Below, in pieces: positions 233 to 44,113 of a stretch of 64,000 nt of DNA. Source of the stretch: Octopus sinensis. Lineage: Eukaryota. The notes below the pieces were generated by a model that was not told the DNA's origin, ran no database searches, and saw only the letters and a list, made by a program, of their open reading frames with translations. The stretch is taken from the NCBI RefSeq assembly GCF_006345805.1, contig NC_043008.1, forward strand, positions 50,158,001 through 50,222,000. Reading direction: 5' to 3'. Position numbers and translations under genes: made by a program. Within the stretch, counting starts at the first letter, position 1. Every line of letters starts with the position of its first letter.

Positions 233-1277
233 TAAATCAAAATGGGGTGATTATAATCAAAATAAGCAACAAGGATATCCAGAGGTAGCACAGTACAATC
301 GTTTCATGCGACTTCATATATATAAAAGGACAAAACTGAATAACGTGGTTGTGTGATGTTTGCACATTGACAAAAGACGGGAAGGTCAGACGGTCATAGT
401 TGGAATGCCTTTGTCCGTAATCAATTTGATCAGGGATGACCTGGGACCACATATGATGAAGACGATACAGATCTAACAAACAACGTTCTGGAAATACCAG
501 CCAAATCCGTTTCAAACCACTCCTTACTGCCTTTAAAGAAATTAAAGATACATTAGGCATAACATAAGACGTGGTGTTCACGACTGGAAAGCTTTTGATC
601 ATGAAGCTAAACAACAACGACGACCTGAGAGAAACAGCAGCCAAATTTCCATCATAACACTCCCTACCCTTTTATAAAAAGAAGGGCTACAGTAGTTAAT
701 GTAAGCCCTGTTATACAAAACAAAATGTGCAGCCACGATTGGAACGCCTTGAAATAGACCTAAACAACATTATAATTAGCAGGCAAAATTCTGTCAAATC
801 ACACTTTAATATTTTTTTAAAAACAAGGGTGTATACATTAGGAAATGTGACCCGGCATAAAAAGACGGGTCTGTTAAGGTTAGAACAGCTTTGATGTGTC
901 TGCTTGACTTAGGGCCAACTTGTGGCTAAAAAGCAACAACTAAAGGCTGCCGAGTAAATACAAAACGAAACACGTTATCACATATGTCTGACATAATTTT
1001 TTCAGATTTCACATTGCTAATTATCGGAGCCATTCGTGCACATTCCATCATATAAATGAGTGACGGCATCCGTTCGGATCGATACCGATGTCTCCAGACT
1101 AAGCAAGCGTATCAGAAGTCACACAGGTGTTATAGAATTACATTTATAATTGCATTCACATCTAGGATGCTTTATAGCAATAACTAAATCAACTCCATTA
1201 CTTGACGAGTATTTTATTTTATCAACCCCCGGAAGGGAATGAAAGGCAAAGTTATTTTTTATATCTTTACTCGTCTC

Positions 1278-1498
1278 TTTTACTTGTTTCAGTCATTTGA
1301 CTGCGGCCATGCTGGAGCACCACCTTTAGTCGAGCAAATCGACCCCGAGACTTATTCTTTTTGTAAGCCCAGTACTTATTCTATCGGTCTCTTTTTGTCG
1401 AACCGCTAAGTGACGGGGACGTAAACACACCAGCATCGGTTGTCAAGCAATGCTAGGGGGACAAACACAGACACACAAACACACACACACACACATAC

Positions 1499-1562
<64 letters not shown>

Positions 1563-1733
1563 ATATATATATACATATATACGACGGTTTCCGTCTACCA
1601 AATCCACTCACAAGGCATTGGTCGGCCTGGGGCTATAGCAGAAGACACTTGTCCAAGATGCCACGCAGTGGGACTGAACCCGGAACCATGTGGTTGGTTA
1701 GCAAGCTACTTACCACACAGCCACTCCCGCGCC
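1278..1733 (-). mobile_element. tRNA-derived SINE family A with internal microsatellite (representative copy)
   Basis: Head GGCGC.GGAGTGGCTGTGTGGTAAG...GGTTCAGTCCC (Pol III A/B boxes), central (TA)n/(CA)n, tail GACTGAAACAAGTAAAAGA. Copies at about 3203-3410, 6181-6623, 13335-13900, 14558-15580, 17798-18243, 21410-22205, 29367-29815, 46110-46472, 57997-59605 and 63410-63750. Confidence 0.9.
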
Positions 1734-3152: not shown

Positions 3153-3203
<51 letters not shown>

Positions 3204-3409
3204 TCTCTCTTTTACTCTTTTATTTGTTTCAGTCATTTGACTGTGGCCATGCTGGAGCACCACCTTTAGTCAAGCAAATCGACCCCAGGACTTATTCTCT
3301 GTAAGCCTAGTACTTATTCTATCGGTCTTTTTTGCCGAACTGCTAAGTTACAGGGACGTAAACACACCAGCATCGGCTGTCAAGCGATGTTGAGAGGACA
3401 AACACAGGC

Positions 3410-3469
<60 letters not shown>

Positions 3470-6156: not shown

Positions 6157-6406
6157 CATATCACAGCTACAGGCATACTGTCTTTTACTCTTTTACTTGT
6201 TTCAGTCATTTTGACTGCGGCCATGCTGGAGCACCGCCTTTAGTCGAGCAAATCGACCCCGGGACTTATTCTTCGTAAGCCCAGTGCTTATTCTATCGGT
6301 CTCTTTTGCCGAACCTCTCAGTGACGGGGACGTAAACACACCAGCATCGGTTGTCAAGCAATGCTAGGAGTCAAACACAGACACAAACACAAACACACAC
6401 ACACAC

Positions 6407-6465
<59 letters not shown>

Positions 6466-6726
6466 TACGACATGCTTCTTTCAGTTTCCGTCTACCAAAT
6501 CCACTCACAAGGCACTGGTCGGCCCGGGGCTGTAGCAGAAGACACTTGCCCAAGATGCCACGCAGTGGGACTGAACCCGGAACCATGTGGTTGGTTAGCA
6601 AGCTACTTACCACACAGCCACTCGTGTGTGGTTAAGGAGAAGCTTTTCTCTTTGTTGCAAACCACATGGTTTCGGGTTCAGTTCCACCCCACTGCGTGCC
6701 ACCTTGGGCAAGTGTCTTCTATAATA

Positions 6727-9299: not shown

Positions 9300-11361
9300 T
9301 AGCATTTGGGCCTTGTTTTCTCTCCTATAAACTAAGCCTTCAATATTTATTAAATTTACTTTGGGATCTCTCAATCCTAGGTTTATTTTCCATGCCTGCC
9401 TGGAATTGCATTTTTCTCTTCTACTATTGATCCAGCCATAATATCACAATATTGCTGTAACTTTTAAAACATATAAAACACACACACACACACAAATAAA
9501 AAAAAAAAGCCATGCACAGACACTGAAATTGGCAAAGTTCCTTGTTTTGCTCAGTAACCTTTGCTTAAAAGCTATTGAGTAAAGGCTACAACAGAACAAG
9601 AAAAGGTCACTGATCACAAAATGAGTTTATTGCTTTAGAATCGTCAGTCTCAGTTATAACTGATTCTCAAAATAACTGGCCGTTCATTGGGATTAGCTTC
9701 TAGTTGTTATTGTTGTTGCTGTTAGGATTTGTAGTTATGGTGGTGATGATGATGATGGTGGTGGTGTTTTTTCTGTTGGTTTTTTTTTGTTTTTTTTTTT
9801 TGCTTTTATCAGTGTCCCTTTTACCATTCCATCATCTTCCTCATATAAAAGTGAATTAGCAGAGTCAGTCGAGCATCAGATAAAAAGCTTTGTGGTATCT
9901 CTTCCAAAAAGTCTTCTGTAAAAACCTTTTCTGACATTAAATGAGTGAACTTCCAGTCCAGATATTTACATTCTGTACATCTTTTTCCAACAAAAAAAAA
10001 TTTGTTTTTAAATTCTGGAAATGATCTGCTCATGTAATTTATTCACCCTCTAAAGTTTATTTTTATTTTTGTGAAAAAAGTTCGTAAATTACATGGGTTT
10101 TTATGGTAATTCTCAATCATCATCATCACCACCATCATCATCGTCATCATCATCATTGTCGTCATCATCTTCATCGTCGTTGTCATCGTCATAGTCCTCC
10201 TCCTCCTCCTCCTCCTCATCATCATCATCATCATCATCAAGGCAGCAAGCTGGCGGAATCCTTAGCATGCCAGGCAAAATGCTAAGTGGCATTTCATCCA
10301 TCATTACATTCTGAGTTCAAATTCTGCCAAGGTCAACTTCGCCTTTCATCCTTTCGGGGTCAATAAAATAGGTACCAGTTGAGCACTGAGGTAGATATGA
10401 TCAACTAAGCCCTTTCCCCGAAATTGCTGGCCTTGTGCCAACATTTGAAACTGATATTAATCTGGCTTCTATCTTTGACCTATCTAGCATAAGGAGGCCC
10501 TTCTCGGAACTTGCACTCCACTGGACCTTGTGGTGAGACCCACCTTGTCTATCTTACAATAAAACAAAAACACAAAAAAAACAAATGATTCAAAATAAAT
10601 AGATTGGTGACATTTTCTATGAACTTTTATTGTTTAATTTGAAATTCTCAAAGTCTTTTAATTTTTATTGATTTAATTCTCATTAACACAGTCGTTAAAA
10701 ATTTATATCATATCTATGACAATATTGACATTTCCTCTCTCAAGTTATCAATTATTCATTGGTCAATTATCAAAGTCCTCATTAGGAATTAGTATCAAAA
10801 GCAAAAAATAAAAATTCTGATAAAAAAATCTATGTTAAGCCAAAGAATATTGATTTTCCTCGTTGGTTTGATATCATAATGAAGATTTCTTTAAAATTAT
10901 GAGGTTTAAATGCTGGAAAGATACTTTTGATAGGAGATAAAAGGAAAGCTTACATCTTAGTTGTGATTCTGTGTTTTCTTTTGTTTAAAGTTAAATTACA
11001 TAAACGTCAAGCATTATATATGTACATACATACATACATACATACATACATACATACATAATACATACATACATACATACATACATACATACATACATAC
11101 ATAATACATACATACATATATATATATCATCATCATCATCATCGTTTAACGTCCATTTCCCATGCTAGCATGGATTGGACAGTTCGACCAGTGTCTGGGA
11201 AGCCAGGAGGCTGCACCAGGCTACAGTCTGATCTGGCAGTGTTTCTACAGCTGGATGCCCTTCCTAATGCCAACCACTCTGTGAGTGTAGTGGGTGCTTT
11301 TTACGTGCCACAGCATGGAAGCCAGTCAAGGTCGTGATATATATATATATATATATATCTG

Positions 11362-11460
<99 letters not shown>

Positions 11461-11503
11461 TATATAAGATATACACTTTATTTAAAGCAGCAGAAAATTC
11501 AAC

Positions 11504-11550
11504 AAAATCTGTTACTCTGAGTTTCTCGTTGCCATTCATCAGACAGTTTT
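11504..11550 (-). ncRNA. Type I hammerhead ribozyme motif (antisense mirror copy)
   Basis: Reverse complement reads AAAACTGT-CTGATGA-ATG GCAA CGA-GAAA-C TCAGA-GTA-ACAGATTT. Core intact, stem II weaker. Confidence 0.65.
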
Positions 11551-11610
11551 TTCTAGAATGGAACCGATATATCATTCAATCCGAATTGATATATCGGTTC
11601 CATTCTAGCA

Positions 11611-11657
11611 AAAACTGTCTGATGAACGGCAACGAGAAACTCAGAGTAACAGATTTT
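11611..11657 (+). ncRNA. Type I hammerhead ribozyme motif
   Basis: AAAACTGT-CTGATGA-ACG GCAA CGA-GAAA-C TCAGA-GTA-ACAGATTT. Stem I CTGT/ACAG, GNRA-capped short stem II (A-A mismatch at its base), minimal stem III, GUA cleavage triplet 11646-11648. Confidence 0.75.
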
Positions 11658-11756
11658 GTTGAATTTTCTGTGCTGCTTTAAATAAAGCATATTACTCTAC
11701 CATTGGTATTTGAGTACTCTTTTTTTCCACCTTGTTTCACATTTATGTGTTACTCC

Positions 11757-11808
<52 letters not shown>

Positions 11809-11916
11809 GTCGGTCAGCATTCACACTGTGGATCTTTTTGCAAGCGTTCATGCCAGCTGGCAGAGCTGAAGCAGCAGTAGCAGTTACCAGCTCACAAATA
11901 TAACACCCACACACTG

Positions 11917-12895
11917 CCCTCGACTTGGACGAGACTATCCACCAAACTTAAGCATATCGCTAAGCAAAGAAAAAGAAACCAACTGGGATTCCCTAAGTAA
12001 CGGCGAGTGAACCGGGAGAAACCCAACGCCGAATCTCGTCAGCCACACTGGTCATTAAGAGCTGTGGCGCAAGGGTTGTACAGGGTTGATCGTTTCACCC
12101 TGCTAGGTTAGGAGTTCCCTCAATCAGGGCGGCCCAGAGTGAATGCCAGTCCTATTCAGGGCCAGCGGCAATCGGCAGTGTTCTTCAGCCCGAGAGTCGG
12201 GTTGCTTGGGAACGCAGCCCAAAGCTTGTGGTCTGCTCCATCCAAGGCTAAATATGGGGATGAGTCCGATAGCCGACAAGTACCACAAGGGAAAGTTGAA
12301 AAGAACTTCGGAGAGGGAGTTCAAGAGACCGTGCAACTGCCGAGGGATAAACAGTAGGACCACGATCACAAGAGGACTCAGTCCGCTGCTTCTTGCCAAG
12401 GTGCCGTCATTGCCAACAAACGCACCAGTGGTGGTCGCTTGTTCCGCGAGCAGTCATCTTCTGCCTTGTCAGTGTTCGATATCCGTAGCGCCAGCATCAG
12501 ATGCACTTCTCCTCTAATCCGTCATTGCGACCTGTGCCCGCTGGACCGGTAAGTGCACGGCATCCACAGGTCACAGATAAGCTCCCCACTGCCATCAGCT
12601 TCACGGCCAGCTGGCGTCAGCACCCATGCGCTTCTCTCGACTGGGCCCATCACTCCACAAAAGCGCAGACATGGCTAACCGATGGAGACGGACTAATGCA
12701 CCTCGCCCTCAGCAAGCACGACACAGCAAGTCACGCGCCATTTCTGTGGTGGGTGACATGGCCACCCGCACGCTGCCAAGTTGCCTCCCTTGTAAGGGGC
12801 GGTGCGTGGCAGTCGCAGGACCGCCTGAAAAGCCACTCTTGCCGCCAGTCAGCACTAAACATCAGCAACCTACCCGACCCGTCTTGAAACACGGA
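11917..12895 (+). pseudogene. Decayed 5' fragment of 28S rRNA (D1-D2 region)
   Basis: Recognisable conserved blocks: AACTTAAGCATATC, AAAAGAAACCAACTGGGATTCCCTAAGTAACGGCGAGTGAA, GAGTCGGGTTGCTTGGGAA, ACAAGTACC..AGGGAAAGTTGAAAAGAACTT, ACCCGACCCGTCTTGAAACACGGA. Many substitutions in normally invariant positions. No recognisable 18S, 5.8S or 3' 28S sequence nearby. Confidence 0.93.
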
Positions 12896-12927
12896 ATAGA
12901 CCTGGCTATATAATAATAATAATAATA

Positions 12928-17655: not shown

Positions 17656-18242
17656 GGTCTCCATGTCGATTTAAATGAATATATTTTCCAGCTACAATAC
17701 AAAGGCCTTGACAAAAATATCATCAAAAAAAGATAAATAAATAAATGAAATTCACCCCCACCTACCCACCCCTGCCACCGATATATATATATATATATTC
17801 TTTTATTCTTTTACTCGTTTCAGTCATTTGATTGCAGCCATGCTGGAGCACCACCTTTAGTTGAACAATTTGACCTCAGGACTTATTTGTTGTAAGCCTA
17901 GTATTTATTCTATTGGTCTTTTTTGCCAAACCGCTAAGTTTCAGAGACAAAAGTACACCAGCATCAGTTGTCAAGCGATGGTGGGGGGATGAACACAAAC
18001 ATACAAATAACATACAAATACACATACACACACACGCACACACACACACACTCACCCCCCCCCCCACACACACACACATATACAGCGGGCTTCTTTTAGT
18101 TTCCGTCTACCAAATCCACTCACAAAGCTTTGGTCGGTCCGAGGCTATAGCAGAAGACACTTGCCCGAGGTGCCACGCAGTGGGACTGAACCCAGAACCA
18201 TGTGAATGGGAAGCAAGCTTCTTACCACACAGTCACTCCTGC

Positions 18243-20446: not shown

Positions 20447-22427
20447 CATATAACAAGGCAGTAGGCTAGCAGAATCGTTAGTGTAGCAAACAAAATGCTT
20501 AGCAGCATTTCTTCCATCTTTAGGTCCTGAGTTCAAATTCCACCAAGGTTGCCTTTCCTTTTTATCCTTTCGGGGTCAATAAGATAAGTACCAGCCAGGA
20601 ACTGGGGTCGATGTAATCAACTAACTCCCTTCCCTAAAAGTCCAGGCCTTGTGCCTAAAGTAGAAAAAAACAATTATTATTGCTGTTGTTGATATTATCT
20701 TTATCATAATTATTGTTGTTATTCTTACTGATGATTACAATGTCATTGGAGGAATCGTTTGTTAACATTACGAGATCAATTAACATTGTTAAGTACATAT
20801 TTCACGTCCCTGTTCATTAGTGATATTACGAATATTCTCCCAAGAGTAAAGAATTCTTTGTTTTATTTTCACATGTCTTGGGAATACATGATATCTGTGT
20901 GTACACTGTTCTCCATTTTATGGTTTCGTCTTCTTTCCGTTATATTTAATATCAATATATTAAGCAGTGCAGTAAACGACACAATCAATAATGTGATAGA
21001 CGGAATGTTTTGCAGAAGCTATAAATATGTCCCAAATTCAAATCTAACTAACCTTTATATTCGTGCGGTTGATAAAATAAGTAAGTTTCTGTTAAGCTCT
21101 TGGGTCAATTTTATCAACTGTATCTTCCCCTTAACATTTCTAAATTCTCTTGTGCAAGATGTCAATCCTTTTGAAACCAACACACCCGAGACTGCCTCAG
21201 ATTCCATGATAAAAACTTTTTCTGTTTTGAAGTGGTTTAAAATAAAATTTTCCATCAAAATTTCCCGTTGTTCTAAATGCCAGCTTAATAATGGCTAAGT
21301 TGCTTTATTAAATTCTTCGTTATTTTGGAAATTAATCACATCCAAAGCAGTGGACTTTAGCAGAAGTATAGTAATATCTTTCTAAGCTATTTATATATAT
21401 AGTATCAGGTGCAGTTGTGACATGGTTCCAGGTTCAGTCCCACTGCATGGTACTGTGAGTGGATTTGGCAGACAGAAACTGGAAAAAGCCCGCTGAATGT
21501 ATGTGTGTGCATACATGCGTGGGAGTGTGTGTGTGCATGTGTGTGTGTGTGCATGTGTGTGTGTGCATGTGTATGTGTGTGTGTGTTTGTGTCTTTTTGT
21601 CTGTATCTGTGTCCCCCACCCAGCCACTACTTGACAGCTGGTGTTGGTATATTCTCTTTTACTCTTTTACTTGTTTCAGTCATCTGACTGTGGCCATGGT
21701 GGAGCACTGCCTTTAGTCGAGGAAATCAACCCCAGGACTTATTCTTTGTAAGCCTAGCACTTATTCTATTGGTCTCTTTTTGCCAAACCGCTAAGTTACA
21801 GGGATGTAAATACACCAACATCAGTTGTCAAGCGATGTTGGGGCAACAAACACACACACATATATATACATATACATATATATGACAGGCTTCTTTCAGT
21901 TTCTGTCTACCAAATCCACTCACATGACTTTGGTCAGCCCAAGGCTATAGTAGAAGACACTTGCCCAAGGTGCCACACAGTGGGACTGAACCCGGAACCA
22001 TGTGGTTGGTAAGCAAGCTACTTACCACACAGCCACTCCTGCGCCTGTGTTTACATCCCTGTAACTTAGTGGTTCAGCAAAAGAGACCAACTGATTAAGT
22101 ACTTGCTCTTTAAAATAAATAAGTCCAGGGGTTGATATGCTTGACTAAAATTTTTCAAGGTGGTGCCCCAGCATGGTCACAGTCCAATGACTGAAACAAG
22201 GGAAGTGTAAAAGAAAACAAAATGATTAAATTGCATCCATCAGGAAATTGTGGGTGTAAGGACTTTGGGGATGACTGTCCCTTAGAGATGTCTCATCGAG
22301 GCTCACTAGGGTGTAAGCATAACCTGATGTCATGTGAGCTAGTCTCCATCTCTGAAGGACTAAATGAGTCTTTAAGGATGAGCTGAAGATATCTGGAAAC
22401 CAATAACCTGGCAGAAGGCAACAGAAA

Positions 22428-28752: not shown

Positions 28753-29592
28753 TAAACTAATAAAAAATTTTAAACGTTTTTCGTATTACGCCTTTGTTGA
28801 GTTAAATCGTATGTCCTGGAACCAGTTATTGATGTAAATGAGGTAGGCCTGTATTTCTTAGACTAAATTATTCAATGTGTCCTTCGTTTTTTAAAAATCA
28901 AGTGTGTAAAATGAGGAAGTCTCGGCTGTTATTTCTAACAAATCAAATAGTTTAAGTTGACGTCCACAGTGGAGGTAACTCTAATGGGCACATATTAGAA
29001 TTACCTCCCTTGGACTTTTCTTTTAAAAAATGTTGCTCTATTTTTTTTTTTTTTTTAATCCTAATATTTTTTTGCTTTCTGAATTAATTTCATTAAATGA
29101 AAATATTTGCCTAAATGGTAAGCGTAATCGAGAGTAGAGCTTTCGACTTTCCCTCATAATGTCGTGGATTCGATTCCTGGACGGGACAGTGCGTTGTGAT
29201 TGTACGATACTCTTTCACAAACCATGCAATCTGCATTTTTTAAATCTTAATCTAATCTTGTTAATTATCTACCTCTTTAGTAATCATCTCTCTCTCTCCC
29301 TTTCTTGCCCCTTTCTCTCCTTTTCCCTCTCACTAGCCCCCTCTGTACATACGATGTAGTATATACTCTTTAGTCTTTTACTTTTACTTGTTTCAGTCAG
29401 TTGACTGTGGCCATGCTGGAGCACCGCCTTTAGTCGAGCAAATCGACCCCAGGACTTATTCTTAGTAAGCCTAGTACTTATTCTATCGGTCTCTTTTGCC
29501 GAACCGCTAAGTTACGGGGATGTAAACACACCAGCATCGGTTGTCAAGCAATGTTGGGAGGACAAACACATACAAACATATACACACATATT

Positions 29593-29638
<46 letters not shown>

Positions 29639-29964
29639 CACACATATATGTATACATATATACGACGGGATTCTTTCAGTTTCCGTCTACCAAATCCATT
29701 CACATGGCTTTGGTCAGCCCGAGGCTATAGTAGAAGACACTTGCCCAAGGTGTCATGCAGTGGGACTGAACCCGGAACCATGTGGTTCGTAAGCAAGCTA
29801 CTTACCACACAGCCAAATGTACGTGTGCATGTGTGTGTGTGTGTATCCATTGAACATGATTAACACTTTATTTTACTGAACCCTCATTTGTCGTTCGTGA
29901 CAAGAGTATCCATCGCGTGTGTGTGTGTAAAGTATACATATACATGTATATACACAACGAATAT

Positions 29965-43832: not shown

Positions 43833-43856
43833 TACATACATACATACATGCACATA

Positions 43857-44103
43857 CCAGAGTAAGTACATAAATGTGAAACAAGGTGGGGCAAAATAGT
43901 ACTCAAATACTGGAGGTAGGATAATATACTTTATTATTATTAAAGCTGCCAAAACATCATAAAACTATCAAAAAAAATCTGCTACTCAGAGTTTCACGTT
44001 GCCACTTGTTGGACAGTTGTGATTCAGAACGCAGCAAGAAATCTTGTTCCATTCTGAATCACAACTGAAAACAAGAATGTTTTCGCAGCTTTAATAATAA
44101 AGT
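43857..44103 (-). mobile_element. Second, more decayed copy of the 11476 fold-back family
   Basis: 43857-43935 is the reverse complement of the 11681-11760 tail. Degenerate hammerhead on the minus strand (ACTGT-CCAACAA-GTGGCAACGT-GAAAC-TCTGA-GTA-GCAG). It has its own central hairpin CAGTTGTGATTCAGAA...TTCTGAATCACAACTG. Confidence 0.75.
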
Positions 44104-44113
44104 AGGGGTGTGT

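What the first reader, a model, noticed from the sequence alone, without database searches (positions are those of the whole stretch)
11476..11760. Hairpin mini-element with a hammerhead ribozyme core on both strands
Seen: a ~210 bp near-perfect palindrome in a (TA)n tract. The right arm reads CTGT-CTGATGA-ACGGCAACGA-GAAAC-TCAGA-GTA-ACAG on +, and the left arm gives the same motif on the minus strand. Both arms share the unusual A before GAAA, whereas the 43.9 kb copy has the pairing T, so one arm was probably copied from the other. Known: minimal type I hammerheads occur in the terminal repeats of Penelope-like elements and retrozymes, and PLE insertions can carry inverted partial terminal repeats. 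Inference: this is a non-coding, PLE-mobilised element. A transcript in either direction would contain a ribozyme plus its own antisense, so it could switch between a long dsRNA rod (ADAR/Dicer substrate) and a self-cleaving fold, reminiscent of ambisense viroid-like RNAs.
Basis: partly seen in the sequence, partly recalled or inferred. Interest (0 to 1): 0.85.

Follow-up and report, generated by a model that had tools for sequence, protein, structure and literature searches.

The report
Twin-primed Penelope retroelement hairpin insertion
This hairpin is the clipped end of a common jumping gene (a Hydra-type Penelope-like retroelement) pasted in twice, head to head, which is why its ribozyme motif shows on both strands; the pattern across its copies suggests the two arms were likely made by two reverse-transcription starts on one RNA molecule.

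Summary
The hairpin and both hammerhead motifs are real, at the stated coordinates. It is not a separate mini-element or an RNA switch. It is a very short insertion of an autonomous Hydra-clade Penelope-like element (3.4-kb unit, TERT-like RT), with at least 3,530 insertions in this genome. Inverted truncated copies with hammerheads on both strands are published. The 'unusual A' is the family norm (97 of 100). The hammerhead is buried in the rod (82 kcal/mol penalty).

The value lies in the family. In 61 of 64 inverted pairs, one arm ends at each of two sites 71 nt apart. Seven pairs share no sequence. Arms agree at subfamily sites (45 of 45 at one). One copy carries an A-to-G run typical of ADAR editing, with the same two changes in both outer arms. 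This favours two primings on one uncut sense RNA over the published antisense self-priming model. Cleavage and expression are untested.

The parts
11476..11574 (-). Short ('S') arm: inverted copy of the element's terminal repeat, ending at AATAAAG|TATA against the (TA)n target
11509..11546 (-). Minimal hammerhead motif in the S arm (helix II U-G variant; predicted cut after 11513)
11575..11586 (.). Joint between the two arms (hairpin tip); the tip sequence differs among sister copies (20 distinct tips in 27 of 30 loci read)
11587..11687 (+). Right arm, element sense: 3' end of the pseudo-LTR of the Hydra-clade Penelope-like element
11615..11652 (+). Minimal type I hammerhead motif: helix I 4 bp plus extension, 2-bp helix II, A-A at 10.1/11.1, palindromic helix III; predicted cut after 11648
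   Evidence: same layout as Hydra-2_aMil in Craig 2021 File S2
11688..11758 (+). 71-nt 'tail' present on one arm only; it is the parent's sequence between the two end sites and ends at ACTCCGG|TATA ('T' end)
11337..11475 (.). (TA)n target tract, left
11759..11806 (.). (TA)n target tract, right
43855..44104 (-). Older, diverged relative with the same layout: tailed arm on minus with decayed core CCAACAA, and an internally deleted S arm on plus

Best explanation
The hairpin is a very short, 5'-truncated insertion of an autonomous Hydra-clade Penelope-like retroelement into a (TA)n tract, and its two arms were likely made by two separate reverse-transcription primings on one sense RNA molecule. 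SHOWN: the parent is a 3,439-nt unit with a TERT-like RT; insertions end at two fixed sites 71 nt apart (S and T); an inverted pair nearly always has one of each; the two arms agree at subfamily sites. INFERRED: the protein cuts both strands of (TA)n. One DNA 3' end pairs with CAUAU at site S and the other with UGUA at site T. Two antisense cDNAs are made from the same uncut RNA, both stop early, and their 3' ends are joined, often at a micro-palindrome. Repair turns this into a head-to-head palindrome with the tail on one side. The hammerhead appears on both strands only because it lies just upstream of both priming sites. In the hairpin it is predicted to be locked in the rod and inactive. 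In the parent RNA it would work, if at all, as a dimer or with protein help, and cleavage is probably not needed for insertion. The commonest stop, 17-36 nt into the arm, likely marks the RNA's 5' end. The window copy reaches about 20 nt further, so its template was a read-through RNA.
For: Parent: L061 holds two arms 3,439 nt apart around RT-GIY-YIG reading frames. L070 has a 723-residue open frame with DKT, YRDD, CxCx5C and VVY..YTG. Its AlphaFold model (pLDDT 88) has TERT as best PDB match, E=4.8e-9. Two end sites: in a census of 97 C1 loci, 64 inverted pairs were seen: 61 S+T, 1 S+S, 0 T+T, and 2 with one broken end. Among the 34 loci with no pair seen, I read 22 lone S, 11 lone T and 1 complex, so each site is a priming site in its own right. 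Against simple fold-back: the S arm reaches further 5' in 19 of 61 pairs, and in 7 of 61 the tail arm lies wholly outside the S arm. One source RNA: arms agree at diagnostic sites in 45/45, 40/41, 33/34 and 24/25 pairs against 52-59% expected. Long arms differ by 1.3% within a locus and 5.0% between loci, 18 of 18 pairs. Sense template: in L186, 10 of 11 and 7 of 8 mismatches to unedited sister copies are A-to-G in the sense of the primed arm, the enclosed TA tract has 24 G to 1 C, and the opposite outer arm carries the same two changes on the other genomic strand; that variant is in no other fetched locus. Uncut RNA: 93 of 163 arms start at q17-36 and 6 at q61-66, where the cut lies after q63. 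In vitro, the anole element cuts and extends both strands, starts at two sites flanking the tail, and does not need hammerhead cleavage (PMC11167929).
Against: Palindromes are unstable (own knowledge), so later one-sided deletions through the tip could mimic unequal or non-overlapping arms, and gene conversion could mimic arm agreement; I could not exclude either. The tail-arm starts in the 7 non-overlapping pairs (100-165) do not pile up at site S, as a collision of two enzymes would predict. Only 27 of 58 joints show an overlap of 2 nt or more. L186 is a single locus; its unedited source was not found, no second edited copy was found with two patterns, and the ADAR 5'-neighbour bias was not significant (1/17 vs 11/50, p=0.27). 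Shared edits show one molecule of origin but would also follow if one cDNA were copied. Pfam gave no hit for P0001 and the PDB sequence search was blank. The GIY-YIG call rests on motif, homolog annotation and 2 of 30 weak Pfam hits. The anole work found no homology between primer and RNA, whereas here both sites are (TA)-like.
Confidence: 0.75

Rival explanations
1. Same parent element, but the inverted arm is made by self-priming or fold-back (the published model uses an antisense template); unequal arms come from later deletions.
For: Proposed by Arkhipova et al. 2013 from palindromes at inverted joints (PMC3846280, passages). Micro-palindromic tips are common here. Fold-back also gives arms that share variants.
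Against: It does not explain strict S+T pairing (61 of 64), both ends occurring alone, or 7 non-overlapping pairs without extra events. L186's A-to-G run is in the sense of the primed arm, so that template was sense RNA.
Confidence: 0.15
2. The hairpins form a self-propagating non-autonomous subfamily: whole hairpin RNAs are routinely re-inserted by the parent's protein.
For: The tailed arm keeps both priming sites, and L186 shows a hairpin copied as part of a longer read-through RNA. Some tips recur (7 of 30 share AATT).
Against: Tips are mostly different (20 kinds in 27 loci read). Arm lengths run from under 50 nt to over 3 kb. A re-inserted hairpin carries its source's flank and a new outer S arm, seen in 1 locus only.
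Confidence: 0.07
3. One reading: a functional ambisense RNA that switches between a long dsRNA rod and a self-cleaving fold.
For: Both motifs have an intact core. A related hairpin RNA appears to have been ADAR-edited.
Against: 82 kcal/mol penalty for the hammerhead inside the hairpin. The antisense arm is made first in both directions. Even the lone arm has probability 3e-6 for the monomer fold. A large subfamily spread with a U4-to-C core and any base at 11.1.
Confidence: 0.02
4. An ordinary DNA-transposon MITE with terminal inverted repeats.
For: Palindromic, TA-flanked, thousands of copies.
Against: The repeat is not terminal (71-nt one-sided tail), the 5' ends are ragged, and the parent encodes an RT.
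Confidence: 0.01

Closest known systems
Hydra clade of Penelope-like elements (Craig et al. 2021; PMC8557442 / bioRxiv 2021.04.23.441226; passages and File S1/S2 tables seen)
   Same: RT then C-terminal GIY-YIG, DKT motif, CxCx5C linker, (TA)n targets, hammerhead in the repeat. Hydra-2_aMil has the same ctgt-ctgatga...gaa-actcNgagt-a-acag layout. Penelope-13_HM is listed with a 5'-truncated inverted copy and the hammerhead on both strands.
   Different: This family is not Hydra-1_Obim (protein start and hammerhead differ, compared by eye). The unit is 3.4 kb against the usual under 3 kb, helix II is only 2 bp, and the tail is 71 nt against 30-40.
Minimal hammerheads of metazoan PLEs (Cervera and De la Pena 2014, PMC4209133; first two of four parts read)
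   Same: Type I motif with a short palindromic helix III, expected to act as a dimer. The paper already notes dual motifs 100-700 bp apart on opposite strands in Schistosoma.
   Different: Their consensus has G10.1-C11.1 and a long helix II. Here 10.1/11.1 is A-A, though unpaired bases at that place are common in the Hydra table.
Anole Poseidon element PAc (Frangieh et al. 2024, PMC11167929; first two of four parts read plus word search)
   Same: Two internal RT start sites bounding the tail, both target strands cut and extended, hammerhead cleavage dispensable.
   Different: Different clade. Its start sites lie in the ORF and lack target homology; here they lie upstream of the likely ORF start and are (TA)-like. 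The main text does not link the two sites to inverted insertions ('inverted' occurs once, for a blocked oligo).
L1 twin priming (recalled, no call)
   Same: Both target strands prime cDNA synthesis on one RNA and the cDNAs are joined by microhomology.
   Different: L1 gives an inversion without duplication at a variable internal site. Here both sites are fixed and 71 nt apart, so the product is a duplicated palindrome.
Non-LTR retrozymes (bioRxiv 10.64898/2026.07.22.740005, part 1 of 5 read)
   Same: Non-coding, hammerhead-bearing, PLE-derived.
   Different: Retrozymes are head-to-tail tandem units; this is a head-to-head truncated insertion.

Membership tests
Penelope-like element (EN+) | Telomerase-like RT in a single ORF | tested here: met
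   YRDD at 356; best fold matches are TERTs, E=4.8e-9; Pfam gave no hit for P0001
Penelope-like element (EN+) | C-terminal GIY-YIG endonuclease | tested here: inconclusive
   VVY..YTG at 593; PF01541 precomputed on homolog P0003; weak Pfam hits in 2 of 30 homologs; no separate fold search of the domain
Penelope-like element (EN+) | Pseudo-LTR partial tandems, inverted 5'-truncated copy, one-sided tail | tested here: met
   L061 and L062 are tandems; 61 of 64 census pairs have a tail on one arm
Hydra clade | DKT in place of DKG | tested here: met
   SDKT at 124; 115 of 121 proteins DKT, 0 DKG
Hydra clade | CxCx5C linker | tested here: met
   CNCKSESSC at 574; 115 of 121 proteins
Hydra clade | No CCHH motif (no Cys pair inside the GIY-YIG core) | tested here: met
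   No Cys between VVY and YTG in P0001; the count over homologs failed (pattern matched none)
Hydra clade | Insertion into (TA)n | tested here: met
   TA repeats follow nearly all ends printed
Hydra clade | Groups with Hydra references in an RT tree | not testable with these tools
   The reference sequences lie only in a paper supplement and could not be loaded; compared by eye
Minimal type I hammerhead | Core CUGANGA / GAAA / NUH with helices I-III | tested here: met
   Rfam models do not score it
Minimal type I hammerhead | Palindromic helix III allowing a dimer | tested here: met
   ACUC-A-GAGU duplex -7.4 kcal/mol; the homodimer minimum-energy fold is the double hammerhead (predicted)
Minimal type I hammerhead | Paired 10.1-11.1 | tested here: not met
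   A-A in 141 of 178 motifs tabulated with the fully commonest form; all four bases occur at 11.1 in the older subfamily
Minimal type I hammerhead | Self-cleavage | not testable with these tools
   Needs an in vitro assay
Non-LTR retrozyme | Head-to-tail tandem units, each with a hammerhead | tested here: not met
   Head-to-head layout
MITE | Terminal inverted repeats and a fixed length from a transposase parent | tested here: not met
   One-sided tail, variable length, RT parent

The most novel reading that the evidence does not exclude
Penelope-like elements make their long-unexplained inverted-plus-tail insertions by twin priming: both cut target strands prime at two fixed sites on one uncut sense RNA. 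This genome holds thousands of records of it, including a hairpin RNA that was ADAR-hyperedited in the germ line and then copied back into DNA with the same edits in both outer arms.
Probability: 0.6. Interest if true: 0.7.

Novelty: new member of a known kind. Interest (0 to 1): 0.5.

Why it matters
The feature as reported is a known by-product of Penelope-like elements. But how those elements form inverted structures is called undefined in Craig 2021, and the published model is self-priming on an antisense template. This young, high-copy family makes the question testable from sequence alone, and the data point to twin priming on one sense RNA, linking the 2024 in vitro result to genome structure. 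Second, each insertion is a ready-made perfect dsRNA. Palindromic repeats and lizard Penelope copies are known major hyper-editing targets (PMC5625713, passages), and L186 appears to be a rare fossil of such an edited RNA.

Tried and rejected
Rfam: no hammerhead family hit; the miRNA hits are generic hairpin matches below the gathering score. Expression: no RNA holder is listed on record. Four runs guessed to be RNA, held as contigs, cover the element and show three opposite-strand joints in the arm region and no splice-like joint, but they may be DNA and cannot show ends, strand or level, so they are not used as evidence. An intron or ORF start at the ATG inside the core: the frame closes after 29 codons in L061, and homologs start at the equivalent of the ATG at unit position 239; dropped. 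Neptune clade: my first guess, replaced by Hydra after DKT and CxCx5C. Fossil evidence of hammerhead cleavage: 7 loci have both arms joined near the cut against 543 matches just upstream of helix I (patterns differ in length, so not a strict ratio). By eye, 16 of 50 listed joints in the q54-70 zone (of 134) have an arm starting at q63/64, but microhomology (GT-A-AC, AACA) explains them equally well; inconclusive. RT stalling at an RNA hairpin as the cause of the q17 edge: that hairpin is weak (-4.3 kcal/mol; a longer form -9.6); not excluded, ranked below an RNA 5' end. The L186 source locus and further edited copies were not found. The end-calling regex missed ends and was replaced. Earlier findings: none returned. 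Literature searches that found no prior twin-priming model for PLEs or an edited retro-inserted copy: (listings only; subscription papers, Repbase and Dfam are not searchable, so absence is not shown). The animal group (octopod-like repeat landscape) is recalled and was not tested.

Full report
1. Observation. The palindrome is real: 11476-11574 pairs with 11587-11687 with 2 mismatches and a 2-nt indel, z = -25.9, inside (TA)n. Both strands carry CTGT-CTGATGA-AYGGCAACGA-GAAA-CTCAGAGTA-ACAG at the coordinates given. The motif alone is weak (4 hits against 1.04 expected) and Rfam does not score it. A 71-nt tail follows only the right arm (11688-11758). The 43.9-kb copy is an older relative with a decayed core.

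2. Family. The own genome (2.72 Gb) has 2,676 exact matches to the 34-nt core, 1,662 to a U4-to-C variant, 6,360 to the arm end and 3,530 to the tail; reversed controls gave 0. Of the first 100 cores listed, 97 have A before GAAA, so this is the norm. The older subfamily has G, T, C or A there.

3. Parent. Extending the arm upstream led to long copies. L061 holds two arms 3,439 nt apart around frameshifted RT and endonuclease frames. L070 gives a 723-residue open frame with SDKT, YRDD, CxCx5C and VVY..YTG. It has at least 2,092 relatives at E<=1e-20 among 7,999 candidates scored. Sequence libraries were blank, but the predicted structure (pLDDT 88) matches telomerase RT best. DKT, CxCx5C, no Cys pair in the nuclease core, (TA)n targets and a hammerhead are the stated marks of the Hydra clade. 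Its published table has a hammerhead of the same layout and one family with the motif on both strands through an inverted truncated copy. The octopus family listed there is a different one (by eye).

4. Anatomy of insertions. Coordinates q count from window 11586 = q1; the cut would lie after q63. The census is 97 loci on contig C1: 60 from the exact-core list (five more had been fetched as long copies and are not in it) and 37 from the arm-end list that lack an exact core. 3' ends fall at two sites, S (q100, AATAAAG then TATA) and T (q171, ACTCCGG then TATA). The parent reads CATAT and TGTA at these places, which can pair with a (TA)n primer. Of 64 inverted pairs, 61 are S+T, 1 is S+S, none is T+T, and 2 have a broken end; 34 loci showed no pair within the stretch fetched. 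In 19 picked long loci, 17 of 19 pairs were S+T. The S arm reaches further 5' in 19 census pairs, the T arm in 6, and 36 are within 10 nt. In 7 pairs the tail arm lies wholly beyond q99. Of 163 arms, 93 start at q17-36 and 6 at q61-66. q17 is the A of an initiator-like CCATTCT (consensus recalled) and the base of extended helix I.

5. One RNA. Arms of a pair agree at four diagnostic sites in 45/45, 40/41, 33/34 and 24/25 cases against 52-59% by chance. Long arms differ by 1.3% within and 5.0% between loci (18 of 18 pairs); in the C1 sample the figures are 1.7% and 3.1% (30 of 31).

6. An edited copy. L010/L186 stood out with 20 A-to-G among 24 rare variants. It reads: outer S arm on minus; then on plus 1.3 kb of element, a 530-nt tandem duplication, a TA tract, a window-like hairpin and the tail. 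The changes cluster from the end of the upstream arm through the TA tract (24 G, 1 C) and the hairpin's left arm: 7 of 8 and 10 of 11 mismatches to unedited sister copies. The outer S arm has the same two changes as the primed arm, on the opposite genomic strand, a variant seen at no other fetched locus. The simplest reading is an ADAR-edited read-through RNA, sense to the primed arm, copied from both S and T. Limits: one locus, source not found, no second case, neighbour bias not significant, raw reads not checked.

7. Mechanism. Inferred: both strands of (TA)n are cut and each primes at one site on the same uncut RNA; the two cDNAs stop early and are joined, giving a head-to-head palindrome with a one-sided tail. 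This fits the in vitro behaviour of the anole element and not, without extra events, self-priming on an antisense template. Later deletions and gene conversion remain the main alternative. I put membership in the Hydra family at about 0.95 and twin priming at about 0.7-0.75.

8. The ribozyme. As a lone arm the active monomer fold has probability 3e-6, while the homodimer's best fold is the double hammerhead, as described for minimal PLE motifs with low activity. In the hairpin it is buried: 82 kcal/mol penalty, with the antisense arm made first either way. No switch is supported. Cleavage itself is untested.

9. Verdict. The reported feature is a new family of a known kind, and hammerheads on both strands are already in print. 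The interest comes from the family-wide test of an open mechanism and the edited copy. Interest 0.5. Supplements of the bioRxiv papers were closed; those of PMC11167929 and PMC4209133 were not opened and might bear on prior statements of the model.

Noticed in passing
L186:5584-7972 (G000:C13, about 45,567,080-45,569,470): Insertion that looks copied from an ADAR-hyperedited read-through RNA holding an element end, a TA tract and a window-like hairpin; the same two A-to-G changes occur in both outer arms.
   Followed up: partly
window 11915-12923 +: Decayed 5' part of a eukaryotic LSU (28S) rRNA gene, 155 nt right of the hairpin (Rfam RF02543, E=2e-53).
   Followed up: no
G000, e.g. L146-L182: An older subfamily spread to at least 1,662 arms with core CCGAYGA (U4-to-C) and any base before GAAA, suggesting relaxed demand on the catalytic core.
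   Followed up: partly
window 11622-11760 +; L061: The ATG inside the hammerhead core opens a short frame (29 codons in L061; cut earlier in the window copy by a 2-nt insertion) upstream of the likely main ORF start.
   Followed up: partly
L072, L155, L183, G000:C5:127923957 and 127924384: Local tandem duplications of whole insertions with their TA flanks; may be real or assembly repeats.
   Followed up: no
L063:5727-6992: A second RT-coding element (Pfam RVT_1, E=2e-26) is nested inside one arm of a long inverted insertion.
   Followed up: no
window 1275-1730, 3190-3435, 6164-6627, 17781-18242, 21637-22042, 29354-29822: Several copies of another dispersed repeat of roughly 450 nt, often next to (TA)n (families D15, D16, D19, D20).
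   Followed up: no
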